DNA of 64,000 nucleotides from a phage. The stretch lies in the sequence record PZ386972.1; one strand, written 5' to 3'. The number at the start of each line of letters is the position of its first letter. The first letter of the stretch is position 1. Positions 36,006-52,510 of the stretch are shown here, piece after piece. The translations under genes and the position numbers were made by a program. The notes beneath the pieces were generated by a model that was not told where the DNA came from, did no database searches, and saw only the letters and a program-made list of their open reading frames with translations.

Positions 36006-36014
36006 GGAGACTAT

Positions 36015-37127: not shown

Positions 37128-37132
37128 CTAAT

Positions 37133-37173
37133 ACAGCACTGAGCAAGTTCTTTAAAATTTGACTTGCTCAGTG
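37133..37173 (+). terminator. 12-bp-stem hairpin whose 3' arm overlaps the next promoter's -35
   Basis: GCACTGAGCAAG ... CTTGCTCAGTGC inverted repeat. Confidence 0.4.
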
Positions 37174-37192
37174 CCATAAAACTTGATATAAT
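37164..37192 (+). promoter_or_regulatory. early promoter
   Basis: TTGCTC 37164-37169, TATAAT 37187-37192. Confidence 0.5.
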
Positions 37193-37255
37193 AGTTATCT
37201 AATTTGGAAACATATCTAAAAGTGTTTAAACTAGTATTTGAATACTTTTAAATAT

Positions 37256-37343
37256 GGGCGTTTATTCCGTAGATGGTAGCGGAGGGGATTGTAAATCCCT
37301 GGTCATTGCGACTCGAGTGGTTCGACTCCATTAACGCCCACCA
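37256..37343 (+). tRNA. tRNA-Tyr (anticodon GUA), long variable arm
   Basis: Acceptor GGGCGTT/AACGCCC; anticodon stem GGGGA/TCCCT with loop TTGTAAA; variable stem-loop; CCA. Confidence 0.65.
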
Positions 37344-37361
37344 AATTTAAAGGTAAAATAT

Positions 37362-37844: not shown

Positions 37845-37845
37845 T

Positions 37846-37920
37846 GCACCTATCATCTATCGGTTAGGACATCAGGTTTTCAACCTGAGAAGCTTGGTTC
37901 GATTCCGTGTGGGTGTACCA
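37846..37920 (+). tRNA. tRNA-Glu (anticodon UUC)
   Basis: Acceptor GCACCTA/TGGGTGT; anticodon stem TCAGG/CCTGA with loop TTTTCAA; CCA. Confidence 0.55.
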
Positions 37921-37928
37921 AATTCTGC

Positions 37929-38005
37929 ATTCCTAGAGTGTTACTGGACAGCATGTCGGTCTCCAAAACCGTACGGTCTAGGTTCGAGTCCTAGTAGGTT
38001 TGCCA
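37929..38005 (+). tRNA. tRNA candidate, anticodon uncertain (possibly CCA/Trp)
   Basis: T-arm CTAGGTTCGAGTCCTAG and CCA end are clear; acceptor pairing needs two U-U mismatches. Confidence 0.35.
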
Positions 38006-38011
38006 AAATTT

Positions 38012-38086
38012 GCACCTTTAGCTGAGATGGATTAGCGCTTGCCTGAAGAGCTTGAGAGGTTCGTTCGATACGAACAGGGTGCACCA
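38012..38086 (+). tRNA. tRNA candidate, anticodon uncertain (possibly GAA/Phe)
   Basis: Acceptor GCACCTT/AGGGTGC; D-arm GCTG/TAGC; T-arm GTTCGTTCGATACGAAC; CCA; loop CTGAAGA with weak stem. Confidence 0.4.
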
Positions 38087-38088
38087 AA

Positions 38089-38376
38089 TTGAGGGAGCTG
38101 CTGATGCATCCTGAAAACTTCTTTATTTACTGCGCGGATAAGTTGCTGAAACGTAGAATTAACAAAGTCTATCATTATCGTGCTAGTCAACAGCCTTATG
38201 TATACGCTTTTGACGGTGATCACATCCCATTAGAACAACTATCTTGTGATTACATGATATTGAAGAACTTTGACGAGACAAAGATCTCAAGCGTTCATAA
38301 TCGACAGAATCCCTTAACGTGGAAATATAAGAAGAAAAAGAAAGGCATCAAATTCTTAAAAAATGTAGTTGCTTAG
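38089..38376 (+). CDS. hypothetical protein (95 aa)
   Basis: ORF track. Confidence 0.4.
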   Translation: MRELLMHPENFFIYCADKLLKRRINKVYHYRASQQPYVYAFDGDHIPLEQLSCDYMILKNFDETKISSVHNRQNPLTWKYKKKKKGIKFLKNVVA

Positions 38377-38397
38377 TTTCCAAAAGTTCTGTATAAT
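38369..38397 (+). promoter_or_regulatory. early promoter
   Basis: TTGCTT 38369-38374, TATAAT 38392-38397. Confidence 0.55.
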
Positions 38398-38425
38398 AAT
38401 TACATAAATTGAACTGGAGAAGCAA

Positions 38426-38713
38426 ATGAAACGATTAGTTAGATTTAAGTGTTGTGGTTCTGAACATATTTTCACACATCTTCGTGAATTTAAAATGTGT
38501 GATTGTGGTAAATCAGGCTATGACTCAGGAGATGGGTTCTACACCCGTACTCTAGGGAACTTCAATGATCTAGAATTTGAAGATCTCGAAAAACAAGAAA
38601 AAGAATTATGTATCTGTTATGAATGTGGTGATCAAGATTACTACTCTAAAACAGGTAAGAAAGTGTGTAGCAATTGTGGTTCCGATCATGTAGCTACACA
38701 TTATGAAAGATAA
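38426..38713 (+). CDS. Cys-rich zinc-finger-like protein (95 aa)
   Basis: Multiple CxxC pairs (CDCGKSG, CYECGD, CSNCGSDH). Confidence 0.45.
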   Translation: MKRLVRFKCCGSEHIFTHLREFKMCDCGKSGYDSGDGFYTRTLGNFNDLEFEDLEKQEKELCICYECGDQDYYSKTGKKVCSNCGSDHVATHYER

Positions 38714-38718
38714 TAAAC

Positions 38719-38794
38719 CGACCGTTGGCTGAATGGCTTAGGCGAAGGATTGCAAATCCTTTTTATGTGAGTTCAAATCTCATGCGGTCGTCCA
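38719..38794 (+). tRNA. tRNA-Cys (anticodon GCA)
   Basis: Acceptor CGACCGT/GCGGTCG; anticodon stem AAGGA/TCCTT with loop TTGCAAA; T-arm GTGAGTTCAAATCTCAT; CCA. Confidence 0.6.
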
Positions 38795-38796
38795 AT

Positions 38797-38936
38797 TTGC
38801 TGAAAGAATTGTTAAATCAATTCAGGCACGCGTAGGAACACTGTCTCCGTAATTGAAAGATGAGACACGGTTTGGAGAGGTATGCCGCTACACGCTACGG
38901 TGCTAACTCCGTCTAGGTGAAAATCCTAGTCAGCAA
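38797..38936 (+). ncRNA. structured RNA (~140 nt) with terminal pairing and T-arm-like hairpin, not a canonical tRNA
   Basis: 5' TTGCTGA pairs with 3' TCAGCAA; hairpins GTCTC...GAGAC and CTAGGTGAAAATCCTAG. Confidence 0.3.
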
Positions 38937-38946
38937 TATAAATTTA

Positions 38947-39029
38947 GGGTCGTTAGCCAAGCGGTTTGGCGGTGGACTGTTAATCCATGTCGAAAGACAA
39001 CGTAGGTTCGAATCCTACACGGCCCGCCA
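38947..39029 (+). tRNA. tRNA with GUU anticodon (Asn-like) and an atypical 13-nt variable stem-loop
   Basis: Acceptor GGGTCGT/ACGGCCC; anticodon stem GTGGA/TCCAT with loop CTGTTAA; variable GTCGAAAGACAAC; CCA. Confidence 0.45.
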
Positions 39030-39131
39030 AATTCTGTGTAGAGTTAAGTAAACCGGTAGCCAACCAGCTATCATTGCTGACATCGAATTCAGCCACAGAT
39101 ACCATTTTCATTAATAACTGAGGAAACAAGC

Positions 39132-39317
39132 ATGTCCAAGAATGTAATTGCACAGTTAGAAGTTCATCGTGATAACACAGCTAATAACATTAAGTGCCGA
39201 CAAAAAGATATTGAAGCTCAAAAGGCTGATCTTTTAATGAGTATTCGAGAGCTTAATGTACGAAAAGAGTTTCTTAAAGAACTTAATGCAGCTATTGAAA
39301 AACTCAAAGCTGAGTAA
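39132..39317 (+). CDS. hypothetical protein (61 aa)
   Basis: ORF track; AGGAAACAAGC RBS. Confidence 0.35.
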   Translation: MSKNVIAQLEVHRDNTANNIKCRQKDIEAQKADLLMSIRELNVRKEFLKELNAAIEKLKAE

Positions 39318-39326
39318 ATGAATTAT

Positions 39327-39403
39327 GCGACCGGGGCTGGCTTGGTAATGGTACTCCCCTGTCACGGGAGGGAATGTGGGTTCGAATCCCATCGGTCGCG
39401 CCA
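39327..39403 (+). tRNA. tRNA-Asp (anticodon GUC)
   Basis: Acceptor GCGACCG/CGGTCGC; anticodon stem CTCCC/GGGAG with loop CTGTCAC; CCA. Confidence 0.6.
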
Positions 39404-39420
39404 AATAAGGTAGGTTAGCT

Positions 39421-39579
39421 ATGGAACGTAGGGAGTTTACTCCGGAAGAGATAGAGCAGATAAAAGAATCTGCTATGAAAAATGCTAGAATATCTCTGTC
39501 ACTGGAAGGTATCATTATAAGTGATGTAAACTTTGAAAAAATCAAAGCCATAGCTGATGAACTGGAAAAAGTAATTTAA
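39421..39579 (+). CDS. hypothetical small protein (52 aa), below the ORF-track cutoff
   Basis: ATG after AAGGTAGG; fills the gap between two tRNAs. Confidence 0.3.
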   Translation: MERREFTPEEIEQIKESAMKNARISLSLEGIIISDVNFEKIKAIADELEKVI

Positions 39580-39580
39580 T

Positions 39581-39656
39581 ACATCCATAGCTCAATGGTT
39601 AGAGCTACCGCCTCTTAAGCGGAGGGTTCTAGGTTCAAGTCCTAGTGGGTGTACCA
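39581..39656 (+). tRNA. tRNA-Lys (anticodon CUU)
   Basis: Acceptor ACATCCA/TGGGTGT; D-arm GCTC/GAGC; anticodon loop CTCTTAA; T-arm CTAGGTTCAAGTCCTAG; CCA. Confidence 0.55.
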
Positions 39657-39682
39657 AACTAAACTAGCACGAGAAATATGCT

Positions 39683-40030
39683 ATGATTAATGCTAAAGAA
39701 GAGTTGTTACTTGCCCTAAAGAATACTAAGTCTGAAGTTAAGTGTATTAAGATAGAATTCGGTTATTATGGGAACAAAGAAGTTTGGATATTACCCGTAG
39801 GTTATACAGAAAAAGATATTGAAGATTTTCTAAATAATCTAGACTTCAAATATGATTCTGGTTTCGGTGGACAATTGCTTTACGGTAACGTATGGTTTAC
39901 TGATGGAACTTGGTTAGAGCGTGGTGAATATGATGGTTCTGAATGGTGGGAGTATAAGACTACACCAGCAATCCCAGAAGAATGCCGAACAATTAATGGT
40001 GAAGTAGATCGTACTTTACTATTAAATTAA
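39683..40030 (+). CDS. hypothetical protein (115 aa)
   Basis: ORF track. Confidence 0.45.
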   Translation: MINAKEELLLALKNTKSEVKCIKIEFGYYGNKEVWILPVGYTEKDIEDFLNNLDFKYDSGFGGQLLYGNVWFTDGTWLERGEYDGSEWWEYKTTPAIPEECRTINGEVDRTLLLN

Positions 40031-40038
40031 CAAAATTT

Positions 40039-40277
40039 CAGTGCAGAACACGGAGCTAGCAATTCGGAAGTGCTGACTCATGATAGGCTGCCTATGTACT
40101 TGCGAAGCGGTCGTGTCCAAGACTCGGACTCTTGCACTGAAAACAATCAAACATTCTAGCGTGGTTGATGGGGAAACCAGCTTGGCTAGGGCAGAAGCTC
40201 GTTCGATTCGAGTGAAAGAATGGTTCTCGTAAGTCCGCACAAGTGATAACAGGTTCGAGTCCTGTCTAGAATGACAC
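40039..40277 (+). ncRNA. composite structured RNA region with closing stems and two T-arm-like hairpins, unresolved
   Basis: CAGTGCAG (40039-46) pairs CTGCACTG (40132-39); ATTCTAG (40153-59) pairs CTAGAAT (40267-73); T-arm-like hairpins at 40197-40213 and 40250-40266. Confidence 0.3.
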
Positions 40278-40422
40278 TATAAAGTTTACTTATTATGTAG
40301 GTTCCGATAGATCGGCGGGTCTATTCTGGCATTTAAGAGAGGTCTCGCAAACTTCTTTGTCAGCCGTGGGGTTGATAGCCTCCAGGTGGCCTACACAATA
40401 AGTAAATTTATTAAAAATTCAT

Positions 40423-40451
40423 TTGCTATTCTGCTTAATTATCTGTATAAT
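40423..40451 (+). promoter_or_regulatory. early promoter
   Basis: TTGCTA 40423-40428, TATAAT 40446-40451. Confidence 0.6.
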
Positions 40452-40481
40452 ATATTTTATAAAGTGAGTTAACAAAATTAA

Positions 40482-40557
40482 CAGTGCGTAGCGCAGTTGG
40501 TAGCGTGGGAGCCTTGGATGCTTCGGGTCGCAGGTTCGAGTCCTGCCGCACTGACCA
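40482..40557 (+). tRNA. tRNA-Pro (anticodon UGG)
   Basis: Acceptor CAGTGCG/CGCACTG; anticodon stem GGAGC/GCTTC with loop CTTGGAT; T-arm GCAGGTTCGAGTCCTGC; CCA. Confidence 0.65.
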
Positions 40558-40563
40558 AACAAT

Positions 40564-40641
40564 TGCGGGTTAGATCTCTGGTAGAGATCGCTAGTCTCAT
40601 AAGCTAGAAAGAGGTAGGTTCGATTCCTGCACCCGCTTCCA
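40564..40641 (+). tRNA. tRNA with CAU anticodon and a 1:72 mismatch (initiator- or Ile2-like)
   Basis: D-arm GATC/GATC; anticodon stem CTAGT/GCTAG with loop CTCATAA; T-arm with TTCGATT loop; CCA. Confidence 0.55.
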
Positions 40642-40661
40642 TTTTAATAGAGGATTTCGAA

Positions 40662-40829
40662 ATGAAAGTATTTCGATTAGTAGTAAGTGACAAACGTTTA
40701 GGTAAGAATACCTCAAAATCCTTACTTGCTCATTATGGAAAAGATGAGAAAGAAGTAATGGCGGAGTTTGGGATTAATCACCCTTACTTGAAAGTTCACT
40801 CTATTAAAGAAGTATATAATGGTTACTAA
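40662..40829 (+). CDS. hypothetical small protein (55 aa), below the ORF-track cutoff
   Basis: ATG after GAGGA; between two tRNAs. Confidence 0.3.
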   Translation: MKVFRLVVSDKRLGKNTSKSLLAHYGKDEKEVMAEFGINHPYLKVHSIKEVYNGY

Positions 40830-40830
40830 T

Positions 40831-40909
40831 AGATCGCTAGCTCAATAGGTTTAGTAGCATCCGACTTTTAATCGGAAGGTTCTGGGTTCGAGTCCCAGGC
40901 GATCTACCA
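40831..40909 (+). tRNA. tRNA-Lys (anticodon UUU)
   Basis: Acceptor AGATCGC/GCGATCT; anticodon stem TCCGA/TCGGA with loop CTTTTAA; T-arm CTGGGTTCGAGTCCCAG; CCA. Confidence 0.55.
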
Positions 40910-40927
40910 ATTTCAAGAAAAACGCAG

Positions 40928-40956
40928 TTGCTTGATGCTTAATTTCTTGTTATAAT
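40928..40956 (+). promoter_or_regulatory. early promoter followed by a 9-bp-stem leader hairpin
   Basis: TTGCTT 40928-40933, TATAAT 40951-40956; hairpin TGATGAGGA-TTT-TCCTCATCA at 40969-40989. Confidence 0.55.
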
Positions 40957-41194
40957 ATTTATATAAATTGATGAGGATTTCTCCTCATCATAGTTCACTA
41001 AGGTATTAGCTCGACCTAGGACTGGCTGCCAAAAAGCACGATCCCTACGATTCGGGAGAAGTTCTAGATTAGTCCACTAGATTCAGCGGCAACTGAATAG
41101 TGTATCGGGTTTGCGAGATGACGCGGTTCCTTCCGCTCGAAGCGAAGGTGCTGTAGTTACGCCGAGCTAATAGCCTTAGTAAACTAAAGAATTT

Positions 41195-41273
41195 GGGGAA
41201 TGGGTCTGCATGGAGTGGACACCTCGCTTGCACCGAGGACATCAGAACGGTTCGATTCCGTTATTCTCCACCA
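41195..41273 (+). tRNA. tRNA-Ala (anticodon UGC)
   Basis: Acceptor GGGGAAT/ATTCTCC; anticodon stem CCTCG/CGAGG with loop CTTGCAC; T-arm AACGGTTCGATTCCGTT; CCA. Confidence 0.6.
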
Positions 41274-41278
41274 AATAC

Positions 41279-41355
41279 GCGTGATTGATGGAATTGGCAT
41301 ACATACCGTCCTTAGAAGTCGGGTTTTGAGGGTTCGAATCCCTTGTCACGCACCA
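41279..41355 (+). tRNA. tRNA, anticodon uncertain (hand fold gives UAG)
   Basis: Acceptor GCGTGAT/GTCACGC; D-arm ATG/CAT; T-arm GAGGGTTCGAATCCCTT; CCA; anticodon stem has a U-U mismatch. Confidence 0.4.
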
Positions 41356-41440
41356 AATTTGATGGTCAGAGTAAATTAAACCTACTATCTCGGTTGAGCT
41401 GTTTTAATGGGTTCGAATCCCAGCGAGGCGTAACTGCCTG
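41356..41440 (+). ncRNA. orphan T-arm-like hairpin plus adjacent hairpin; possible tRNA remnant or small RNA
   Basis: TGGGTTCGAATCCCA at 41408-41422 and AGGCGTAACTGCCT at 41427-41440; no acceptor partner found. Confidence 0.25.
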
Positions 41441-41467
41441 GCGTGATAGAGGCATCATCTTATTATT

Positions 41468-41558
41468 GGAAGAGCAAATCGAATTGGCGACGAAAACCGC
41501 TTGGAAAGTGGCTGACTGGTAAAACGGCTTGAGAGTTCAAATCTCTCCTCTTCCGCCA
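41468..41558 (+). tRNA. tRNA-Ser (anticodon GGA), long variable arm
   Basis: Acceptor GGAAGAG/CTCTTCC; anticodon loop TTGGAAA; T-arm GAGAGTTCAAATCTCTC; CCA; 91 nt. Confidence 0.55.
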
Positions 41559-41570
41559 AACAATTTATAT

Positions 41571-41665
41571 GGTAGGTCAATCCAATGGCTGGCGCTGGAC
41601 TCCGACTTGAAATCGGTTGATCGTAGTGATACGGTGTAAGGGTTCGATCCCCTTACCTACCTCCA
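41571..41665 (+). tRNA. tRNA-Ser (anticodon UGA), long variable arm
   Basis: Acceptor GGTAGGT/ACCTACC; anticodon loop CTTGAAA; variable stem CGTA/TACG; T-arm AAGGGTTCGATCCCCTT; CCA; 95 nt. Confidence 0.55.
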
Positions 41666-41670
41666 AGTCT

Positions 41671-41802
41671 TGAAGTATGCCGGAATCGGTAGACGGGGCT
41701 GCCTAAAAGGTTTATAGGGAACATCCACTCCCTACAACATACCTCATAAAGCGGCTGAGATAAATGGTCTATCTCGTGAAGGTTCAAGTCCTTCTGCTTC
41801 TT
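41671..41802 (+). ncRNA. structured region with terminal T-arm (GAAGGTTCAAGTCCTTC) and internal hairpins, unresolved
   Basis: Hairpins TAGGGA...TCCCTA (41714-41734) and GAGATA...TATCTC (41757-41775); T-arm 41778-41794; no CCA. Confidence 0.25.
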
Positions 41803-42031
41803 GATACATCTATGGCTCAAAGTGTAACGGTGCTATTTGATGCTCTTAGTAAGACTTTCCCGACATGCGTTCGGGAGTAAGCTGCTAAGGCTAGAATAGA
41901 AGAGTTTCTGAGAGCCGCCACAATTGAAAATTCGTACTCGTCTTGAGCTGCGTGCAATAGGAGATAACTTGATTAGTATTCTAGAACATGCTAATTGAGG
42001 ATGGTTTCGCTAACCCTGCGAGTTTTCAATT

Positions 42032-42108
42032 GTGGCTATATCATAATTGGTTAATGATCCTGATTGTGAATCAGGCCTATGTGGATTCGAATTCCACTAG
42101 CCACCCCA
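42032..42108 (+). tRNA. tRNA-His (anticodon GUG)
   Basis: Acceptor GTGGCTA/TAGCCAC; D-arm TCAT/ATGA; anticodon stem CCTGA/TCAGG with loop TTGTGAA; T-arm GTGGATTCGAATTCCAC; CCA. Confidence 0.65.
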
Positions 42109-42133
42109 AATTAACTTAAATAGGAAATAAAAT

Positions 42134-42331
42134 ATGGCTGATTTCTGCAAACAATGCTCCATTGATATGTGGGGCAGAGATACTGGTGATCTTTCTGGTT
42201 TGATTACAGAAGCTGAGGTCAAAGAAGGTTATGGTGCAGTTGTGATTTGCGAAGGATGCGGAGTTATTCGAGTAGATCATGAAGGCAAACGTTTAGAAGA
42301 ACAGGAAAACTTAGGAGAAACAAATGAGTAA
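42134..42331 (+). CDS. hypothetical Cys-containing protein (65 aa)
   Basis: ORF track; RBS. Confidence 0.4.
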   Translation: MADFCKQCSIDMWGRDTGDLSGLITEAEVKEGYGAVVICEGCGVIRVDHEGKRLEEQENLGETNE

Positions 42332-42560
42332 TGCTTTAATTAGTGAAATTATGTTAACACGTCTTGCAGAACTGCAAACTCTTCGAGATGAATCTCAGAA
42401 TAACTTAGCCTACCATAAACAGATGGTAGATACTCTTACTACTCGTATTGATACTTACGAGCGTGATATTGCAGCATTACAAGCTCTTTTCTCTGTATCA
42501 GCACCAGATACGTTAGAACAGCCTGCTGTATCTCAGCCAGTAGAAACAGCATCTAGCTAA
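42324..42560 (+). CDS. hypothetical protein (78 aa)
   Basis: ORF track; overlapping start and stop. Confidence 0.4.
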   Translation: MSNALISEIMLTRLAELQTLRDESQNNLAYHKQMVDTLTTRIDTYERDIAALQALFSVSAPDTLEQPAVSQPVETASS

Positions 42561-42569
42561 TAGCATTCT

Positions 42570-42645
42570 TGGGATGTAGATCAATTGGCAGATCGTCGGC
42601 CTCTGACTCCGAAGGTTCCACGTTCGATCCGTGGCATCCCAGCCA
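42570..42645 (+). tRNA. tRNA-Gln (anticodon CUG)
   Basis: U1-A72 acceptor TGGGATG/CATCCCA; D-arm GATC/GATC; anticodon loop CTCTGAC; T-arm CCACGTTCGATCCGTGG; CCA. Confidence 0.6.
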
Positions 42646-42651
42646 AACAAT

Positions 42652-42727
42652 TGGAGAGTAGTGTAACGGTTAGCACAACGGCCTTTGACTCCGTTAATGG
42701 TAGGTTCGATTCCTCCTTCTCCAGCCA
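42652..42727 (+). tRNA. tRNA-Gln (anticodon UUG)
   Basis: U1-A72 acceptor TGGAGAG/TTCTCCA; D-arm GTGT/GCAC; anticodon loop CTTTGAC; CCA. Confidence 0.6.
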
Positions 42728-42735
42728 AGTAATAA

Positions 42736-42811
42736 GCGGTTAAGCACACGGGTTGTGTCGCAGGCCTTCCAAGCCTCGCTGAGTAGGGTTCGATTCCCTC
42801 TAGCCGCTCCA
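42736..42811 (+). tRNA. tRNA-Gly (anticodon UCC)
   Basis: Acceptor GCGGTTA/TAGCCGC; anticodon stem AGGC/GCCT with loop CTTCCAA; T-loop TTCGATT; CCA. Confidence 0.55.
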
Positions 42812-42827
42812 ACTTTAAGGAAACATT

Positions 42828-43079
42828 ATGCACGTTTTTGAGTTTCGTAATAAAAGTACCGATAAACGAGTTATTGTTATTGGAGAAACATACCGAGCAT
42901 ACGAACAAACTGACGGCTCTGTTATCCTAAACGATGAGAAAGGAGGTTTTAGCTTTTATCCAGAAGAACCTTATGAAGAGTTTCGAAAACAATTTAACCT
43001 AGACTGGAGAAAGCATTTAAACACTGTTGCTTCATCTGTAGTATTGCCAACTACCAGTACTGTACTCTCTAATGGCTGA
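42828..43079 (+). CDS. hypothetical protein (83 aa)
   Basis: ORF track; AAGGAAACA RBS. Confidence 0.4.
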   Translation: MHVFEFRNKSTDKRVIVIGETYRAYEQTDGSVILNDEKGGFSFYPEEPYEEFRKQFNLDWRKHLNTVASSVVLPTTSTVLSNG

Positions 43080-43236
43080 TAACCTAAAAGTCAAGATCGA
43101 TAAACAAAAGAAACGTGTAGAAGTAGAGATTGGTGAAGAACGTGTAGCCTTCACCTTTGAATTTCTACAACAAATGGCAATGGCGGTTATGACTGATAAG
43201 TCTCCTGTTATTGAAAAAGAAATCCCGTTGAAATAA
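43072..43236 (+). CDS. hypothetical small protein (54 aa), below the ORF-track cutoff
   Basis: ATG overlapping the upstream stop region. Confidence 0.3.
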   Translation: MADNLKVKIDKQKKRVEVEIGEERVAFTFEFLQQMAMAVMTDKSPVIEKEIPLK

Positions 43237-43244
43237 CGGGTTCT

Positions 43245-43331
43245 GCTGGGTTGGCAGAATGGTTGAATGCACCTGATTTGTAATCAGGAGGAGTAATCCC
43301 GTTGCAGGTTCGAATCCTGTGCCCAGCACCA
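43245..43331 (+). tRNA. tRNA with UGU anticodon (Thr-like) and an atypical 15-nt variable region
   Basis: Acceptor GCTGGGT/GCCCAGC; anticodon stem CCTGA/TCAGG with loop TTTGTAA; T-arm GCAGGTTCGAATCCTGT; CCA. Confidence 0.5.
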
Positions 43332-43345
43332 ACTTAAGGACTATT

Positions 43346-43513
43346 ATGTTTAAATTATTAGTAGTTATCTGGTATAGTCAATCAAATAGAGCGAATACCT
43401 CCCACGTTATAGACTTTAATACTAAAAATGAAGCTGAAAAAGCATATTCTAATTTAATAGAACGTAATAAAGAATCTCGTAGTATAGTTTATGAAGTGAC
43501 TAAACTTTATTAA
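43346..43513 (+). CDS. hypothetical protein (55 aa)
   Basis: ORF track 43319..43513, start moved to ATG 43346 after AAGGA so it no longer overlaps the tRNA. Confidence 0.35.
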   Translation: MFKLLVVIWYSQSNRANTSHVIDFNTKNEAEKAYSNLIERNKESRSIVYEVTKLY

Positions 43514-43521
43514 AAATTCAT

Positions 43522-43550
43522 TTGCTTTCTCTCTTATTTATTGTTATAAT
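43522..43550 (+). promoter_or_regulatory. early promoter
   Basis: TTGCTT 43522-43527, TATAAT 43545-43550. Confidence 0.6.
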
Positions 43551-43580
43551 ATTTATATAAATTAATGAGAGGGAAGCCAA

Positions 43581-43874
43581 ATGAAACGTTATCTTTCTGT
43601 TGTGTTCCAAACTGGTGGTCAACGCTATACCTATGAATTTCCTGGCTCTTGGAAGATCAAAGAGGGTGATCAAGTAGTAGTGTTAACACCGCGTGAGGGT
43701 TTCAAGGTAGTAACGGTTAAGCAAGTATTTCCAAAAGAGCATGAACCAGCTAAAGGCATTCGCTATAAGATGATTCATGGTGTAGTTCGTCAAGTACCAC
43801 GAGCGGAAGTCGAAATCAAAGTAGATAAAGATGGTAGACTTAAATATACCTCTTGCTTAGATGAGCTGCTATAA
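43581..43874 (+). CDS. hypothetical protein (97 aa)
   Basis: ORF track; GAGGGAAG RBS. Confidence 0.45.
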   Translation: MKRYLSVVFQTGGQRYTYEFPGSWKIKEGDQVVVLTPREGFKVVTVKQVFPKEHEPAKGIRYKMIHGVVRQVPRAEVEIKVDKDGRLKYTSCLDELL

Positions 43875-44080
43875 TGAGGATTACTTTCACAGAAAAGATC
43901 ATGAGTAATGGTGTTATGATCATTACTGCATGGGATGGCAATCAGTGGTGTAGTGTTTCAGGTATTAAGCCTGAAGAACAAACACTAGAAAATATCTCAA
44001 AGATTAAGCGAAGAATGGCAGAACGTGCACGACTTCCAGGTGCACCTAGAAATGGCAAACGTTCTGCTGCAAAATGTTAA
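43874..44080 (+). CDS. hypothetical protein (68 aa)
   Basis: ORF track. Confidence 0.45.
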   Translation: MRITFTEKIMSNGVMIITAWDGNQWCSVSGIKPEEQTLENISKIKRRMAERARLPGAPRNGKRSAAKC

Positions 44081-44081
44081 T

Positions 44082-44158
44082 GCTTCGGTAGCTTAGCGAT
44101 CTAAAGCACTCGGCTGATAACCGAGAGATCGGGGGTTTAAATCCCTCCCGGAGTACCA
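44082..44158 (+). tRNA. tRNA-Ile (anticodon GAU)
   Basis: Acceptor GCTTCGG/CCGGAGT; D-arm GCTT/AAGC; anticodon stem CTCGG/CCGAG with loop CTGATAA; T-loop TTTAAAT; CCA. Confidence 0.6.
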
Positions 44159-44244
44159 AATTTAGGAATTAAGACTATGCGTCCAGGAAAGTTTAAAAAA
44201 GCTAATTGGTCTAAAGAGTATAAAGAATACTTACTTAGTCTAGT

Positions 44245-44320
44245 AAAACATAACAGTTAGTTGGCAGAGTGGTTATGCACCTCCTTCATACGGAGCGACT
44301 ACAGTGGTTCAAATCCACTA
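44245..44320 (+). tRNA. tRNA with CAU anticodon (third CAU tRNA in the cluster)
   Basis: Acceptor AGTTAGT/ACTAACT; anticodon loop TTCATAC; T-arm AGTGGTTCAAATCCACT; CCA. Confidence 0.55.
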
Positions 44321-44367
44321 CTAACTACCATTAAAAGAGCTAGAGATAGCTAAATTTAGGAGCAGCT

Positions 44368-46900: not shown

Positions 46901-47150
46901 GGATATTTTAACATTCCTACGTAGTGAGAATACCCAGTTTTGGCATGACTATATTCAGGAAAATAAAAATAATCCAGATATAGTTGCTTTTGCCAAGAAA
47001 CGTATTGGGGAGTATAAAGATCCAGAGATTAAAGATGGGATGATTACTATGCAGTTATGGATAGCTATGAAAACCTTTGGACCCACTATGAGTCTAGGAT
47101 TTACTCCACTGTTTACTGATATTCTAATTAATGAAAAGGATCTGAAATGA
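46854..47150 (+). CDS. hypothetical protein (98 aa, non-ATG start)
   Basis: ORF track only; overlaps the upstream gene end. Confidence 0.3.
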   Translation: MKRLNINSTVQIPATKDILTFLRSENTQFWHDYIQENKNNPDIVAFAKKRIGEYKDPEIKDGMITMQLWIAMKTFGPTMSLGFTPLFTDILINEKDLK

Positions 47151-47431
47151 TTATCTCTCCCTTTGCTCTTTGGTTCGTCATCGGGTCTGTGGTTGCTATT
47201 TACAGCTTGATTGATGATCTATATATTTCTAAGAATAAAGATGTAATATTATACGTTATACATAAAACCCGACCATTAGACCTACCACCTCTTGATGATA
47301 AAACATTACTCAGGTGTGCTAGATCTATGATATTTATTATGGATATTCTTTTAGGGCCAGCATCTGTACTTTTCTTTTATAGAAAAACTCGTAATATGAA
47401 AAAGTTTAAAGCTGAAATGCGGAATATTTAA
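47147..47431 (+). CDS. hypothetical membrane protein (94 aa)
   Basis: ORF track; hydrophobic N-terminus. Confidence 0.4.
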   Translation: MIISPFALWFVIGSVVAIYSLIDDLYISKNKDVILYVIHKTRPLDLPPLDDKTLLRCARSMIFIMDILLGPASVLFFYRKTRNMKKFKAEMRNI

Positions 47432-47541
47432 AGAACTCGCGTAGGACCGAGTTGCGTCACCTGCAACTGTTACGGATAAGGGAGTCGTGCCCCTTAGTGC
47501 GGTAAGTGGTGAGGTGGCTGCTAGCCATAACTGGAGATGAT

Positions 47542-47886
47542 ATGACTATATTACTAATTCTTGTTACAACTTGGTTTTTAATTGGTGCTGGATATGCGAT
47601 AGCTATTATTAGACATTTGGACGAATATTCTGCTGAATGGTTTGTTAAGTATCTACGTATTGATGATCAGGAACATGAATTTAAGGATGAAAAGCAGAAA
47701 AAGGCAGTAGAGAAAATGACAGGCAAAGAATGTTTATTCTACATGCGTATTGTAGGATTCTTTGGGTTATTAATTGCTGGCCCAATTGGTTCTACTATTG
47801 CTCCGTACAAAGAAACAGTTGCTGACATCAAATTATGGAGAAATGCAGGGGTACTACGCAAAGCTAGAGAAACTAATATCACATAA
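47542..47886 (+). CDS. hypothetical membrane protein (114 aa)
   Basis: ORF track 47506..47886, start moved to ATG 47542 after GGAG; two hydrophobic segments. Confidence 0.4.
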   Translation: MTILLILVTTWFLIGAGYAIAIIRHLDEYSAEWFVKYLRIDDQEHEFKDEKQKKAVEKMTGKECLFYMRIVGFFGLLIAGPIGSTIAPYKETVADIKLWRNAGVLRKARETNIT

Positions 47887-48040: not shown

Positions 48041-48739
48041 ATGAGGATTATTTCTAAATTCGCAGATGTATATGATTTGCAGAACAGTTTGTTTGATCCC
48101 GATCGTGTTTGGGAGCGTAAAACTGAAGAGTTACTGGTTAAAGTAACTGATGATGCAGAAAAGAACATCGTGCATAGTCGCCAGGTATTTCGTGAAGATT
48201 CACTATCTTTCCGTGGAGACTTCGAATACTTTGTAAATCCATTGTTCGTTGCAGGTGAAGTTTACTGGTTACACGAGCTGTACTGCTGGCATCCAGAGTT
48301 TAGCTTCAAAACGTTCGACCTCGACACTATGTTCGATAAAATGGAAGAGATGGGATTGCATGCTCGCTCTTACTTAATGGATAAGAGTCGTGGAGATGTT
48401 CGTGAAACAATGCGTGATTTGCTCGTTGAAGCAAAACCTAAAGCAGAACGTATCTTGTCCGAACTGCGTGTACCGATTGCATATGTGAAAGGTATCAAGA
48501 AGAACGATAACGATGATGTTCGTAACTTCGTGATTCAGACTAACATTCGTTTCCATCAGTCAGGTATTCCGTGGCAGGAAATTGAAAGTAACTTATACCG
48601 TTTACACCAAGTTCTCGAACAGTATATCTTCGGTGTACTAGGAACTGGTGAGCCTGATATGATTAAAGTATCAGATAAAGATAGGTTAGCAGCGCATGGA
48701 TTTGATACAAAAACTTCTTTCAGGAATATGGCATGGTAA
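48041..48739 (+). CDS. hypothetical protein (232 aa)
   Basis: ORF track; AGGATTAAAT RBS. Confidence 0.5.
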   Translation: MRIISKFADVYDLQNSLFDPDRVWERKTEELLVKVTDDAEKNIVHSRQVFREDSLSFRGDFEYFVNPLFVAGEVYWLHELYCWHPEFSFKTFDLDTMFDKMEEMGLHARSYLMDKSRGDVRETMRDLLVEAKPKAERILSELRVPIAYVKGIKKNDNDDVRNFVIQTNIRFHQSGIPWQEIESNLYRLHQVLEQYIFGVLGTGEPDMIKVSDKDRLAAHGFDTKTSFRNMAW

Positions 48740-49145
48740 GTGGTATATCCTGGGAGCAGGTCTAGCGATAGGCATCGGATTCGGTGCTTATCACTTAGTA
48801 GATAAAGTGGAGACTTTAGCGGGAGATCTTGCAGTAGCTACTAAAAAGATCTCTTCTCTAGAGACTTCCCTTAATAAGGTGAAAGCTGAAAGCGAACTTC
48901 GTGAGACTAGAATGAATCAGTATTTCACGATGAATAATATTTCTCAAGCAGATCTAGACAAAAAGATTAAGCAGCTAGATAAAGCTCTTAGTCGTCAAGA
49001 TGTTATCGCTGCAAAACCTGGATTGGTAACATTAATTGCTAAAAAGCAGAATAAAGAGTTCGAGGAAAGATTAGCGTGTTTAACTGGAAACTTGGAGTAC
49101 TGCTCGCAGCCACAATCACAATCACAGGCTGTGCAGAAGAAATAA
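48696..49145 (+). CDS. i-spanin-like protein (N-terminal TM anchor plus coiled coil)
   Basis: 149 aa; TM WYILGAGLAIGIGFGAYHL; coiled-coil body; C-terminal Cys residues. Confidence 0.4.
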   Translation: MDLIQKLLSGIWHGKWYILGAGLAIGIGFGAYHLVDKVETLAGDLAVATKKISSLETSLNKVKAESELRETRMNQYFTMNNISQADLDKKIKQLDKALSRQDVIAAKPGLVTLIAKKQNKEFEERLACLTGNLEYCSQPQSQSQAVQKK

Positions 49146-49429
49146 AACCAGAGCCATCTCATGAGTTAAAGCAAGCTCATGTAGATTGGCCTAAAGGACT
49201 TCAACCTTGTAGCTTTGACTTTAAATTTGAAAAGAAATTAGCTACAAATGGGGAAGATGGCGTAGTAGTTGTTATACCATACAAAGATTGGAATGCAAAA
49301 GCAAAATGTGAGGAAGCAGTTTACTCTTACATTTCACGACTGACTGGTATGGTCTGCTTTTATCGTCAAGATTTACAAGAAAAACGTTGCTTAGTTTACT
49401 ATCCACCAATTAACAATAGGAAAGATTAA
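49076..49429 (+). CDS. o-spanin-like outer-membrane lipoprotein, start overlapping the i-spanin-like gene
   Basis: GTG start after GAGGA; lipoprotein signal with lipobox ITGC (MFNWKLGVLLAATITITGC). Confidence 0.45.
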   Translation: MFNWKLGVLLAATITITGCAEEIKPEPSHELKQAHVDWPKGLQPCSFDFKFEKKLATNGEDGVVVVIPYKDWNAKAKCEEAVYSYISRLTGMVCFYRQDLQEKRCLVYYPPINNRKD

Positions 49430-50181
49430 TGTCAGTATTAGTCGGTTTACATGGTGAAGCTGGTTCGGGAAAAGATACCGTTGCAAAATTAATTATCGAT
49501 TGGTGTAATGACACGTATCCAACGTGTTTATCTCGTCGTTATAGTTTTGCTAAGCCCGTTTATGAACTTGCATCCGTAATCCTCGGTGTAACTCCAGAGT
49601 TTCTAGGAGAGCGCAGGGGGAAAGAGATTGACCAATGGTTTACGGTCACACAATCTCAGTTGGAACGAGCCAGGGATGTGTGGTTTAAGTACGGTATCGA
49701 TAAGTTTGAAGACTTCTCGTACGTTTGGCCTATTTTTGAGGAAAAATATCTTAATCCTCAACAACTTATCTCAGAGAATAAAGAAGACGGACTTTATAGT
49801 TTATTTATTTCTCCGAGAAAAATGTTACAGCTCGTAGGGACAGAGCTAGGAAGGCAGCTGGTGCATGAACGCATTTGGCTCATAATTCTGGAGCAATCCA
49901 TCGCTAAAGACGACCCAGACGTCGCCGTAATAACAGATGTTAGATTCCCCAATGAAGGAGAGCTACTCAGAGAAACAAACCATTTAGATATGGATTCTTT
50001 GATAGTAAATGTAGTACCCGCTGAGCAGAAGTTTACTATTAAATCAGATCATCCATCTGAAAGTGGTATTCCTGCAAAATATATTACCCACGAATTAGTT
50101 AATAAATTCGATGGTATCAATAACCTTAAACTAGAAGTTTATAACTTCTGTGACTTAGAGCTAGAACCACTAGTTGAATAA
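49429..50181 (+). CDS. deoxynucleoside monophosphate kinase-like protein
   Basis: 250 aa; N-terminal P-loop LHGEAGSGKDT as in phage dNMP kinases. Confidence 0.55.
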   Translation: MSVLVGLHGEAGSGKDTVAKLIIDWCNDTYPTCLSRRYSFAKPVYELASVILGVTPEFLGERRGKEIDQWFTVTQSQLERARDVWFKYGIDKFEDFSYVWPIFEEKYLNPQQLISENKEDGLYSLFISPRKMLQLVGTELGRQLVHERIWLIILEQSIAKDDPDVAVITDVRFPNEGELLRETNHLDMDSLIVNVVPAEQKFTIKSDHPSESGIPAKYITHELVNKFDGINNLKLEVYNFCDLELEPLVE

Positions 50182-50193: not shown

Positions 50194-50793
50194 ATGACTA
50201 ATAAAAAAGAAGAAAAGACTAACCTGTTTCACTCCATTCGCCAATCTAATGAGTATACCTTTTTCTTTGATGAAGAATTAGGCCCGCCGGATGAATACCG
50301 TGATTTATCAATGGTACTTATGCAGGCAAATGAGGACGACGAAATTAATCTGATGATTAATGGCCCGGGTGGTTATGTTGATACTGCTGCACAGTTATCT
50401 AACTTAATTGCTAATTGCCGTGGAACAGTTATAGGACATCTGGTTGGTCCTAGTGCTTCTGCTTACTGCACAATTTTCCTATCCTGTCATGGATGGGTGG
50501 TACATCCACATGCTACGCTAATGGGACACACGTTCTCTGGCGGATTCTGTGAGAAAGGTCAAGAAATCAAGAAAGCCTATGAATCTTACAACAAGTTCGT
50601 AGAAGATATGATGCTAGATGTCTACTATCCGTTCTTCTCAATAGATGAAATCGACGAGATGGTAAAAGACAACAAAAATATCTATCTAGATAGCAAGGAA
50701 ATCCATAAGCGTATTGAAATCTTGGCAAAATATCGATCTGAGCAATATAATAAAGCCCATTTACCTAAATCCGAGAAGCACAACGAAGAGTAA
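50194..50793 (+). CDS. ClpP-like (S14-fold) protease family protein
   Basis: 199 aa; INLMINGPGGYV resembles the ClpP YINSPGG motif; downstream Ser and His in register. Confidence 0.45.
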   Translation: MTNKKEEKTNLFHSIRQSNEYTFFFDEELGPPDEYRDLSMVLMQANEDDEINLMINGPGGYVDTAAQLSNLIANCRGTVIGHLVGPSASAYCTIFLSCHGWVVHPHATLMGHTFSGGFCEKGQEIKKAYESYNKFVEDMMLDVYYPFFSIDEIDEMVKDNKNIYLDSKEIHKRIEILAKYRSEQYNKAHLPKSEKHNEE

Positions 50794-50803
50794 GTAATTT
50801 TAA

Positions 50804-50833
50804 GCCAGGGTTTAACGACCCTGGCTTTTCTTT
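50804..50833 (+). terminator. rho-independent terminator
   Basis: Hairpin GCCAGGGTTTAACGACCCTGGC followed by a T-run. Confidence 0.6.
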
Positions 50834-50896: not shown

Positions 50897-50925
50897 TTGT
50901 AATTTTCCTCCAAAATTAGTATAAT
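50897..50925 (+). promoter_or_regulatory. promoter (TTGTAA, 17 bp, TATAAT) for the holin-endolysin operon
   Basis: -35 at 50897-50902, -10 at 50920-50925; an additional TTGACA at 50849-50854. Confidence 0.5.
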
Positions 50926-50949: not shown

Positions 50950-51606
50950 TTGGAAAAGTTCTTACAATTATTAACAGTACTGCTCCAAGAAGCGAAAGAT
51001 CCAGCATCGCTTCTTAAACGTCTGCTAACTATCTTAGTTGCTGTCATTATTTTCTTATTTGTTAGTAATACTAGCGAGGTGATGTCATTCTTAAAGACTT
51101 TCTCCACGTCTGCGGTTCTACAGGATGTTCAAACTCAAAGGATAGATAACTTTCCCAATGTAGCTAGAGAAAAGAGCATGGTACTCTTTTCTCAAACGGG
51201 TGCGGATGCTGTTTTTGTCGTCAAGTATAAACCCGATGCCATTAATGATTATTCTAACATTATTGCATGGGAAAGCAATGCGCAATTAGATAGGGCTGAC
51301 TTGGCCGATAAAGCGGTAAATAAAACGTCTGAGCTATATAGACGTCACTTGGAAGGCTTTAACTACGCATCGGATTTAAGTGTAAAAGTAAATAAATACA
51401 TGGGGTTAAATATACCTGCGTTTAAGAACGTTACTTTTAATTACATATACACTTGTCCGTATTTCAATCTAAACAATATCTATGCTGGATATATTGGTAT
51501 TGCTTGGAAAGATAATCCTGTAGATGCGGCCGATTCTGAGAAATTTAACGAGTATTTAACAAAGCTCTGTTCTCCACAACAGAGATCTTTAGGTAGATCA
51601 ATATGA
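50950..51606 (+). CDS. holin-like membrane protein
   Basis: 218 aa; strong TM segment LLTILVAVIIFLFV; immediately upstream of and overlapping the endolysin. Confidence 0.5.
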   Translation: MEKFLQLLTVLLQEAKDPASLLKRLLTILVAVIIFLFVSNTSEVMSFLKTFSTSAVLQDVQTQRIDNFPNVAREKSMVLFSQTGADAVFVVKYKPDAINDYSNIIAWESNAQLDRADLADKAVNKTSELYRRHLEGFNYASDLSVKVNKYMGLNIPAFKNVTFNYIYTCPYFNLNNIYAGYIGIAWKDNPVDAADSEKFNEYLTKLCSPQQRSLGRSI

Positions 51607-52016
51607 GTTTTAAATTTGGTAAAAATAGCGAAAAACAATTAGCTACCGTTAAGCCAGAGCTACAAAAAGTAGCTCGTAGAGCTTTAGAATTATCTCCATA
51701 TGATTTCACGATCGTACAGGGTATTCGTACAGTAGCACAAAGTGCCCAGAATATTGCTAATGGTACTTCATTTTTAAAAGATCCTAGTAAAAGCAAGCAT
51801 ATTACTGGGGATGCCCTTGATTTTGCTCCATACATTAATGGCAAAATTGATTGGAATGATTTAGAAGCATTTTGGGCAGTTAAAAAGGCTTTTGAACAAG
51901 CTGGTAAAGAACTGGGCATTAAACTTCGTTTTGGTGCTGATTGGAATGCTTCGGGAGATTATCACGACGAAATAAAACGTGGTACCTATGATGGTGGTCA
52001 TGTCGAACTAGTTTAA
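51603..52016 (+). CDS. endolysin, L-alanyl-D-glutamate peptidase (peptidase M15-like)
   Basis: 137 aa; HITGDALDFAP...DWNASGDYHDE...GGHVELV zinc-peptidase motifs. Confidence 0.8.
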   Translation: MSFKFGKNSEKQLATVKPELQKVARRALELSPYDFTIVQGIRTVAQSAQNIANGTSFLKDPSKSKHITGDALDFAPYINGKIDWNDLEAFWAVKKAFEQAGKELGIKLRFGADWNASGDYHDEIKRGTYDGGHVELV

Positions 52017-52093: not shown

Positions 52094-52510
52094 ATGTTTG
52101 CAGAACTATTCACTATGATGCTGCTAGGTATCTGGAAAATAAGTCTAGTAGTATTCGTTTTAATGATAGTCTTTACTATCATTGCATTAACTACCCGAAA
52201 TAGCTTATTAATAAAGGTTATTCACGGACTAGAGTATATAATTATGGGTTCATTCGGCGTTTGTAAATGCAATTGCCATAGAGATACGAAATATTGTTGG
52301 TTATGGATGGAACTAGAGAATCCTATATCCATAGCTTTGGCTGTTTCATTCGGTATGATTCTTATGGCCCTTACTCTAGCATTAATACCTTTGATGTTAG
52401 CTGGGGGAGTTACAGCGTATTTCACCCTTTTCTCCCCGATACTTATGTACTCAATTTACCCAATAACTATGTATCTAGTTAGGAAAAAATTTATACATAC
52501 AGTAGATTAA
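52094..52510 (+). CDS. hypothetical multi-pass membrane protein (138 aa)
   Basis: ORF track; several hydrophobic segments. Confidence 0.4.
   Translation: MFAELFTMMLLGIWKISLVVFVLMIVFTIIALTTRNSLLIKVIHGLEYIIMGSFGVCKCNCHRDTKYCWLWMELENPISIALAVSFGMILMALTLALIPLMLAGGVTAYFTLFSPILMYSIYPITMYLVRKKFIHTVD

What the first reader, a model, noticed from the sequence alone, without database searches (positions are those of the whole stretch)
48696..49429. Overlapping i-spanin / o-spanin-like gene pair upstream of the holin-endolysin
48696..49145 encodes an N-terminally anchored coiled-coil protein. Its 3' end overlaps the GTG start of a lipoprotein (lipobox ITGC) at 49076..49429. This matches the two-component spanin architecture and sits about 1.5 kb from the holin and endolysin.
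Basis: inference. Interest (0 to 1): 0.5.

Follow-up and report, generated by a model that had tools for sequence, protein, structure and literature searches.

The report
Known T5-type overlapping spanin gene pair
The two overlapping genes are the already catalogued inner-membrane and outer-membrane spanin subunits of a T5-like phage, which break the host's outer membrane at the last step of lysis; this is an ordinary, correctly read feature.

Summary
48696..49145 encodes a 149-aa protein with one N-terminal transmembrane helix and a heptad-rich periplasmic domain. 49076..49429 encodes a 117-aa lipoprotein precursor with a GTG start, lipobox ITG|C19 and Ala at +2. The genes overlap by 70 nt in different frames. 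The window is a T5-like phage (Tequintavirus, up to 99.2% DNA identity). The pair corresponds to T5.045/T5.044, annotated 'Rz-like spanin' in the T5 reference genome. Kongari et al. 2018 describe it as the 'T5 family' of overlapped spanins with a 70-bp overlap. Both proteins match the PHROG families that hold T4 PseT.3 and PseT.2, which complement lambda Rz/Rz1 mutants. The o-spanin keeps the two C-terminal cysteines that are essential in T4 PseT.2. Across 28 related sequences, variable sites move from the third codon position of the i-frame to that of the o-frame on crossing the overlap, so both frames are translated and under selection. A strong terminator-like hairpin and a promoter-like site lie between the spanin block and the holin. 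The genes therefore look like separate transcription units, as annotated in T5. No direct experiment on the T5 pair was found. Verdict: interpretation supported, already known, low interest.

The parts
48696..49145 (+). i-spanin gene (149 aa), the homologue of T5.045 and T4 pseT.3. It is a predicted type II inner-membrane protein.
   Evidence: ORF. PHROG 739 at 1.6e-37. BLASTP against T4 PseT.3 gives 29% identity, E 3e-6. 86% identity to T5.045.
48744..48800 (+). Predicted transmembrane helix of the i-spanin (residues 17-35, YILGAGLAIGIGFGAYHLV).
   Evidence: Best 19-residue Kyte-Doolittle window, mean 1.55.
48792..48923 (+). Heptad-rich, coiled-coil-prone periplasmic helix of the i-spanin (about residues 33-76).
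   Evidence: 8 of 8 a/d positions hydrophobic in 28-residue windows starting at residues 21-38. Kongari 2018 supplement lists a coiled coil at 33-76 for the near-identical AKFV33 i-spanin.
49014..49025 (+). KPGL motif of the i-spanin (residues 107-110). K107, P108 and L110 are the only invariant columns shared with T4-type PseT.3.
   Evidence: Alignment A2.
49077..49103 (+). C-terminal Cys128 to Cys136 of the i-spanin (CLTGNLEYC), encoded inside the overlap. The motif is conserved in the sampled Demerecviridae and absent from T4 PseT.3.
49062..49066 (+). GAGGA Shine-Dalgarno sequence for the o-spanin, 9 nt before its GTG start and inside the i-spanin gene.
   Evidence: Sequence.
49076..49429 (+). 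o-spanin gene (117-aa precursor, 99-aa mature lipoprotein), the homologue of T5.044 and T4 pseT.2.
   Evidence: ORF. PHROG 812 at 3.3e-30. BLASTP against T4 PseT.2 gives 29% identity, E 1e-7. 90% identity to T5.044.
49076..49145 (+). 70-nt shared region. It encodes the i-spanin C-terminal tail (residues 127-149 plus the stop) in one frame and the o-spanin signal peptide, lipobox and first mature residues in another.
   Evidence: The same 70-nt overlap is reported for T5 in Kongari 2018.
49121..49132 (+). Lipobox I-T-G-C (residues 16-19). Cys19 would be the acylated first residue of the mature protein. Ala at +2 means no Asp inner-membrane retention signal.
   Evidence: G18 and C19 are invariant in alignment A1. 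A lipobox was found in all 35 genomes checked.
49355..49390 (+). Cys94 to Cys105 of the o-spanin (CFYRQDLQEKRC). They align with Cys87 and Cys98 of T4 PseT.2.
   Evidence: C94, Y96 and C105 are invariant in alignment A1. Both T4 cysteines are essential for lysis in Kongari 2018.
50802..50827 (+). Intrinsic-terminator-like hairpin (11-bp stem, 6 G-C pairs, T-rich tail) after the Clp-like protease gene. It would end the block that contains the spanin genes.
   Evidence: A terminator is annotated at the equivalent place in T5.
50897..50925 (+). Sigma-70-like promoter match (TTGTAA, 17-nt spacer, TATAAT) upstream of the holin.
   Evidence: A promoter is annotated at the equivalent place in T5.
50950..51606 (+). 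Holin (218 aa), T4 T-holin family. It is the partner that acts first in lysis.
   Evidence: Pfam PF11031 at 8e-114. PHROG 860.
51603..52016 (+). Endolysin (137 aa), T5-type L-alanyl-D-glutamate peptidase. It is the partner that acts second in lysis.
   Evidence: PHROG 465 at 2e-54. Weak Peptidase_M15_4 match. Homologues are annotated as endolysin or L-alanyl-D-glutamate peptidase.

Best explanation
The two genes encode a two-component spanin of the T5/T4 (PseT.3/PseT.2) sequence type.

The 149-aa i-spanin inserts in the inner membrane through its single N-terminal helix, with its helical, partly coiled-coil domain in the periplasm. The 117-aa o-spanin is exported, lipidated on Cys19 after signal peptidase II cleavage, and sorted to the inner leaflet of the outer membrane, since Ala at +2 gives no retention signal.

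The periplasmic domains bind each other and form complexes that thread through the peptidoglycan meshwork, stabilised by disulfide bonds that include the conserved Cys94/Cys105 pair. The holin permeabilises the inner membrane and the L-Ala-D-Glu peptidase endolysin removes the peptidoglycan. The freed complexes then cluster, change conformation and fuse the inner and outer membranes, destroying the last barrier to phage release.

Shown here: gene structure, membrane and lipoprotein signals, selection on both frames, homology to the T4 spanins, and conserved synteny. Inferred from the lambda and T4 literature: localisation, complex formation, disulfide chemistry, membrane fusion and the lysis phenotype.
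For: - **ORFs and signals:**
- **Family matches:** PHROG 739 and 812, both 'Rz-like spanin', at 1.6e-37 and 3.3e-30. T4 PseT.3 and PseT.2 hit the same two PHROGs.
- **Direct comparison with T4:** BLASTP gives E 1e-7 for the o-spanin and 3e-6 for the i-spanin.
- **Conserved residues:** the lipobox G-C and the C-terminal cysteine pair are invariant from the window to T4. Those two cysteines are essential in T4 PseT.2, and the T4 pair complements lambda Rz-am Rz1-am (Kongari 2018).
- **Public annotation:** identical gene coordinates are annotated as i-spanin and o-spanin, and as T5.045/T5.044 'Rz-like spanin'. The T5 family is catalogued with a 70-bp overlap.
- **Selection on both frames:** third-position variability switches frame at the overlap in 28 sequences.
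- **Start codon:** the o-spanin start is ATG in 21 and GTG in 7 of those sequences, at the same base, and the change is silent in the i-frame.
- **Synteny:** the order spanins, dNMP kinase, Clp-like protease, holin, endolysin holds in Tequintavirus, a Klebsiella phage, Priunavirus and Novosibvirus.
Against: - No experiment on the T5-type pair itself was found. Function rests on about 29% identity to the T4 proteins and on architecture.
- Neither protein matches any Pfam or NCBIfam model above threshold, and no homologue has a solved structure.
- The single-sequence AlphaFold model of the o-spanin has low confidence (mean pLDDT 51.6).
- The genes are not in the same predicted transcription unit as the holin and endolysin. 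The same is true of the validated T4 spanins.
- Lipoprotein processing was judged by pattern rules only.
Confidence: 0.93

Rival explanations
1. The lipoprotein has a different job, for example superinfection exclusion or receptor masking, as with the T5 Llp or Cor-type lipoproteins. In that case the upstream membrane protein is unrelated and the adjacency is coincidental.
For: Phages do encode non-lytic lipoproteins (established knowledge; T5 Llp). The pair sits in a block with nucleotide-metabolism genes, behind a terminator that separates it from the holin. No direct experiment on the T5 pair was found.
Against: Both proteins, not only one, are homologous to the T4 PseT.3/PseT.2 pair, which complements lambda spanin mutants. 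The functionally essential cysteine pair is invariant. The two genes stay together in every Demerecviridae genome sampled, even when a homing endonuclease gene is inserted between them.
Confidence: 0.04
2. The second ORF is a chance overlapping reading frame and only the i-spanin-like gene is real.
For: It starts with GTG and lies partly inside another gene. Several public records do not annotate or name it (and one search list 'hypothetical protein' or 'none').
Against: In the o-only region, 53% of o-frame third positions vary against 12-16% at the other positions. The start is ATG in 21 of 28 relatives. The protein is conserved at 24-47% identity in other genera and in T4. It exists as a free-standing gene in Shivani-type phages.
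Confidence: 0.01
3. The pair is a spanin, but its disulfide wiring differs from both lambda and T4. The i-spanin C-terminal CX7C and the extra o-spanin pair Cys45/Cys78 might form heterotypic i-o links or extra intramolecular links that change how the complex is held or triggered.
For: T4 PseT.3 has no cysteine, whereas every sampled Demerecviridae i-spanin has S/A-C-L/V-T/S-G-x-x-x-x-C. Cys45 and Cys78 are present together in the Tequintavirus, Klebsiella-phage and Proteus-phage proteins. Both are absent in two Priunavirus-type proteins and in T4-type proteins.
Against: This is based on sequence pattern only. The joint presence or absence covers few independent lineages. The AlphaFold model is too poor to judge cysteine proximity.
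Confidence: 0.2

Closest known systems
Phage T5 spanins T5.045 (i-spanin) and T5.044 (o-spanin); the 'T5 family' of Kongari et al. 2018 (PMC6139136)
   Same: 86% (i) and 90% (o) amino-acid identity. Same 70-nt overlap, same lipobox ITGC and same cysteines. Same neighbours: dNMP kinase, Clp-like protease, holin and endolysin. The AKFV33 and EPS7 sequences listed in the paper's supplement are nearly identical to the window protein.
   Different: The window's i-spanin is 149 aa with the N-terminus MDLIQKLL, as in AKFV33 and EPS7. T5 itself has 147 aa and carries the HNH endonuclease gene hegF immediately upstream, which the window lacks. The window's o-spanin starts with GTG, as do 7 of the 28 compared sequences.
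Phage T4 PseT.3/PseT.2 spanins (experimentally validated; they complement lambda Rz/Rz1)
   Same: Same PHROG families 739 and 812. About 29% identity. Shared KPxL motif in the i-spanin. The o-spanin shares the lipobox and the C-terminal C-x10-C pair that is essential in T4. Both pairs sit apart from the holin and endolysin transcription unit.
   Different: The T4 genes overlap by only 4 nt and are classed as 'separated'. T4 PseT.3 has no cysteine and no C-terminal CX7C tail. T4 PseT.2 lacks the Cys45/Cys78 pair and the C-terminal LVYYPPINNRKD extension. Kongari 2018 lists T4 and T5 as separate families.
Phage lambda Rz/Rz1
   Same: Same functional architecture: a type II inner-membrane protein with a periplasmic coiled coil, plus an outer-membrane lipoprotein encoded out of frame, with periplasmic cysteines.
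   Different: No detectable sequence similarity (no Pfam match). Lambda Rz1 is fully embedded within Rz, short and described as unstructured; its proline richness is from established knowledge. The o-spanin here is 99 aa when mature, only 7% proline, and predicted to have strand-helix-strand elements (low confidence).
Shivani/phiR201-type separated T5-family spanins
   Same: Same proteins (83-86% identity), same lipobox and same cysteines.
   Different: A 699-nt homing endonuclease gene sits between the two genes (666-nt gap). This replaces the i-spanin tail after Cys134 and the first residues of the o-spanin signal peptide. It shows that the overlap itself is not required.

Membership tests
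Two-component spanin (functional class, Rz/Rz1 equivalents) | i-spanin: a single N-terminal transmembrane domain with a periplasmic, largely helical or coiled-coil C-terminal domain | tested here: met
   Hydrophobic window at residues 17-35, followed by a heptad-rich stretch. Coiled coil at 33-76 listed for the near-identical AKFV33 protein. Hydropathy rule only, no TMHMM.
Two-component spanin (functional class, Rz/Rz1 equivalents) | o-spanin: signal peptidase II signal sequence with a lipobox Cys and no inner-membrane retention residue (Asp) at +2 | tested here: met
   MFNWK / LGVLLAATIT / ITG|C19, followed by A-E. A lipobox was found in all 35 genomes checked. Pattern rule only, no LipoP.
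Two-component spanin (functional class, Rz/Rz1 equivalents) | Adjacent i and o genes in an embedded, overlapped or separated arrangement | tested here: met
   Overlapped, 70 nt, different frame.
Two-component spanin (functional class, Rz/Rz1 equivalents) | At least one periplasmic cysteine available for homotypic intermolecular disulfide bonds | tested here: met
   i-spanin C128 and C136; o-spanin C45, C78, C94 and C105. Whether the bonds form cannot be tested here.
Two-component spanin (functional class, Rz/Rz1 equivalents) | Required for outer-membrane disruption: spherical-cell arrest when absent, and complementation of lambda Rz-am Rz1-am | not testable with these tools
   No experiment on the T5-type pair was found in the literature searches. 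The homologous T4 pair complements.
T5 spanin family (Kongari 2018) / T5.045-T5.044 | Close sequence identity to the T5 i- and o-spanins, with the 70-bp overlap | tested here: met
   86% and 90% identity. 70-nt overlap in the window and 27 relatives. Family description.
T4 PseT.3/PseT.2-type spanins (PHROG 739 / PHROG 812) | Significant profile and pairwise similarity of both subunits | tested here: met
   Window proteins: 1.6e-37 and 3.3e-30. T4 proteins: 1.3e-37 and 5e-42 against the same PHROGs. BLASTP E 3e-6 and 1e-7.
T4 PseT.3/PseT.2-type spanins (PHROG 739 / PHROG 812) | Conserved C-terminal cysteine pair of the o-spanin (T4 C87/C98) | tested here: met
   C94 and C105 are invariant in alignment A1 and align with the T4 pair.
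Lambda Rz/Rz1 sequence families (Pfam models, named from memory) | Match to the lambda-type Rz and Rz1 profile models | tested here: not met
   No Pfam match above E 0.01 for either protein. The resemblance to lambda is one of architecture only.
Unimolecular spanin (T1 gp11 type) | A single protein with both an N-terminal lipoprotein signal and a C-terminal transmembrane domain | tested here: not met
   The o-spanin has no hydrophobic segment after the signal peptide. The anchoring helix is on a separate protein.

The most novel reading that the evidence does not exclude
Demerecviridae spanins may use a disulfide architecture distinct from both lambda and T4. It would consist of a conserved C-terminal CX7C on the i-spanin, encoded inside the gene overlap, plus an extra co-occurring Cys45/Cys78 pair on the o-spanin. 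These could give heterotypic i-o or additional intramolecular links that alter how the periplasm-spanning complex is locked or released.
Probability: 0.2. Interest if true: 0.25.

Novelty: already known. Interest (0 to 1): 0.08.

Why it matters
It matters little beyond correct annotation. [quoted passage not shown] Many public T5-like records still label these genes 'hypothetical protein', 'putative terminase' or leave the o-spanin uncalled, so the check is useful for annotation transfer. The only slightly open point is that the T5-type pair has apparently not been tested directly. Its cysteine pattern also differs from the T4 pair it is homologous to.

Tried and rejected
- **Profile libraries:** Pfam and NCBIfam scans gave no meaningful match for either spanin. 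The FtsL-like hit at 20.6 bits, against a cutoff of 50, reflects only a generic transmembrane-plus-helix shape.
- **Solved structures:** the PDB sequence search found no homologue.
- **Structure prediction:** the single-sequence AlphaFold2 model of the o-spanin had mean pLDDT 51.6 and pTM 0.36. It is too poor for fold search or cysteine-distance analysis. Only its secondary-structure order (strand, helix, strand, strand) was noted. Alignments built from fetched loci cannot be submitted for prediction. A 13-CPU-hour homologue search was not justified for a known family.
- **Related loci:** The search for related loci with the 8-sequence alignment failed because no block was conserved enough. 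Single-protein queries were used instead.
- **Literature:** searches for T5.044/T5.045 and for Tequintavirus spanin experiments found only genome announcements.
- **Rejected readings:**
  - A chance ORF, ruled out by the codon-position data.
  - A unimolecular spanin, ruled out by the lack of a C-terminal transmembrane domain.
  - Membership of the lambda Rz/Rz1 sequence families, ruled out by the lack of any profile match.

Full report
**1. What is in the sequence**

The ORF list and the raw sequence show an ATG-initiated 149-codon ORF at 48696..49145 and a GTG-initiated 117-codon ORF at 49076..49429. Both are on the + strand. They share 70 nt in different frames.

The first protein has its strongest hydrophobic window at residues 17-35 (YILGAGLAIGIGFGAYHLV). 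A stretch with a perfect a/d heptad pattern follows. The second protein begins MFNWK-LGVLLAATIT-ITG-C19-AE. This reads as a short basic n-region, a hydrophobic core, a lipobox with its cysteine, and no Asp at +2. A GAGGA sequence lies 9 nt before the GTG.

Downstream genes are:
- a dNMP kinase (49429..50181);
- a Clp-like protease (50194..50793);
- a T-type holin (50950..51606, Pfam PF11031, 8e-114);
- a T5-type endolysin (51603..52016).

**2. Where the window comes from**

A 901-nt query around the pair matches 447 phage records, nearly all Tequintavirus or related Demerecviridae of Salmonella and Escherichia. The best identity is 99.2%, to Salmonella phage vB_Sen_TUMS_E3. The window also carries a block of 22 tRNA genes, as T5 does.

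**3. Is it real coding sequence in both frames?**

I collected 28 distinct sequences of the overlapped type from public phage records and IMG/VR.
- In the i-only part, 55% of i-frame third positions vary, against 17% and 7% at positions 1 and 2.
- In the o-only part, 53% of o-frame third positions vary, against 16% and 12%.

The selection signature therefore changes frame exactly where the genes change.

Inside the overlap most variable sites are i-frame third positions. These are silent in the i-spanin and give conservative changes (V/I, T/A) in the o-spanin signal peptide. The o-spanin start is ATG in 21 sequences and GTG in 7, at the same base, and is silent in the i-frame.

The lipobox and all cysteines were found in all 35 genomes examined by script. 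Overlap lengths are:
- 70 nt in the Tequintavirus-type genomes;
- 88 nt in Klebsiella phage Sealy;
- 49 nt in Providencia phage PR1;
- 34-37 nt in Proteus phages.

In Shivani-type phages a homing endonuclease gene separates the two genes by 666 nt, and both proteins are retained. The overlap is thus conserved but not obligatory.

**4. What it is**

Both proteins match PHROG families named 'Rz-like spanin': PHROG 739 at 1.6e-37 and PHROG 812 at 3.3e-30. T4 PseT.3 and PseT.2 fall into the same two families. Direct BLASTP gives E 3e-6 and 1e-7 at about 29% identity.

In an alignment from the window to T4, the invariant o-spanin columns are the lipobox G-C, two prolines, and C94, Y96 and C105. C94 and C105 align with T4 PseT.2 C87 and C98. 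Kongari et al. 2018 report that the T4 pair complements lambda Rz-am Rz1-am and that both of those cysteines are essential.

The T5 reference genome annotates T5.045 and T5.044 as Rz-like spanins and notes the PseT similarity. Several T5-like records annotate the identical coordinates as i-spanin and o-spanin. Kongari et al. define a 'T5 family' with seven overlapped members (70-bp overlap) and two members separated by a homing endonuclease gene. Their supplement lists AKFV33 and EPS7 proteins that are almost identical to the window's.

**5. How it most likely works**

The following is inferred from the lambda and T4 literature summarised in PMC6139136 and from established knowledge.
1. The i-spanin is anchored in the inner membrane. 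The o-spanin is lipidated on Cys19 and sorted to the outer membrane.
2. Their periplasmic domains bind and, with disulfide bonds, form complexes caged by the peptidoglycan.
3. The holin triggers and the endolysin removes the wall.
4. The complexes then oligomerise and fuse the two membranes.

Only the sequence-level prerequisites were shown here.

**6. Transcription context**

A strong terminator-like hairpin (50802..50827) and a TTGTAA-17-TATAAT promoter match (50897..50925) lie between the Clp-like protease gene and the holin. They sit at the same places as the terminator and promoter annotated in T5. The spanin genes therefore appear to be transcribed with the upstream 232-aa gene, the dNMP kinase and the protease, not with the holin and endolysin. 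The T4 spanins are likewise remote from t and e.

**7. Differences from the closest validated relative**

- T4 PseT.3 has no cysteine. Every Demerecviridae i-spanin sampled ends with a conserved C-x7-C motif (CLTGNLEYC in the window) that is encoded within the overlap.
- The o-spanin has two further cysteines, C45 and C78. They are present together in the Tequintavirus, Klebsiella-phage and Proteus-phage proteins. Both are missing in two Priunavirus-type proteins and in T4-type proteins.

This hints at a different disulfide arrangement. It rests on few lineages and no structure. The only model obtained was of low confidence (pLDDT 51.6).

**8. Dead ends**

There were no Pfam, NCBIfam or PDB relatives. 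No paper testing the T5 pair directly was found.

**9. Verdict**

The feature is already known and catalogued, so interest is low.

Noticed in passing
window 49610..49614 (inside the dNMP kinase gene) and 48691..48695; whole window: The T5 nick-site consensus core RGCGC is under-represented in the window: 54 matches against 101 +/- 12 expected. An AGCGC at 49610 lies at the position equivalent to the 'major DNA single-chain interruption' annotated inside dnk in the T5 reference genome. Another AGCGC directly precedes the i-spanin ATG.
   Followed up: partly
window 48041..48739: A conserved 232-aa protein of unknown function (PHROG 4243, 3e-113, no Pfam hit; T5.047 homologue) overlaps the i-spanin start by 44 nt. 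Different public records name it 'putative terminase' or 'DNA polymerase III subunit epsilon', and nothing found here supports either name. T5 has the HNH endonuclease gene hegF between this gene and the i-spanin; the window does not.
   Followed up: partly
L003 1815..2513 (Salmonella phage Shivani); also L034-L036: A homing endonuclease gene is inserted exactly at the i/o spanin overlap and converts the overlapped arrangement into a separated one. Its ends overlap both spanin genes. The best PHROG matches are 'endonuclease' and HNH families, whereas Kongari 2018 calls it GIY-YIG.
   Followed up: partly
L005 2097..2549 (Providencia phage PR1, NC_041913): The annotated i-spanin (2208..2549, product 'outer membrane lipoprotein i-spanin') starts at an internal Met after the transmembrane segment. 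The open frame extends upstream to an ATG that adds MEQEVKKLSKTAGFFSILSANWATILILVLLILSG, the missing membrane anchor. This is probably a mis-called start and a mislabelled product.
   Followed up: partly
window 47147..47431, 47506..47886 and 52094..52510: Three small predicted membrane proteins of unknown function flank the lysis region. Their T5 homologues T5.049 and T5.048 are annotated 'contains two transmembrane domains'. A 138-aa multi-hydrophobic protein lies just after the endolysin. Whether any of them modulates lysis was not examined.
   Followed up: no
window 33932..44330: A block of 22 tRNA genes, all on the + strand, as in the tRNA region of T5.
   Followed up: no
window 50950..51606: The T5-type holin belongs to the T4 T-holin Pfam family (PF11031, 8e-114). 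The holin and both spanin subunits of this siphovirus are therefore homologous to those of T4, while the endolysin is of a different type (an M15-like peptidase rather than the T4 lysozyme).
   Followed up: partly
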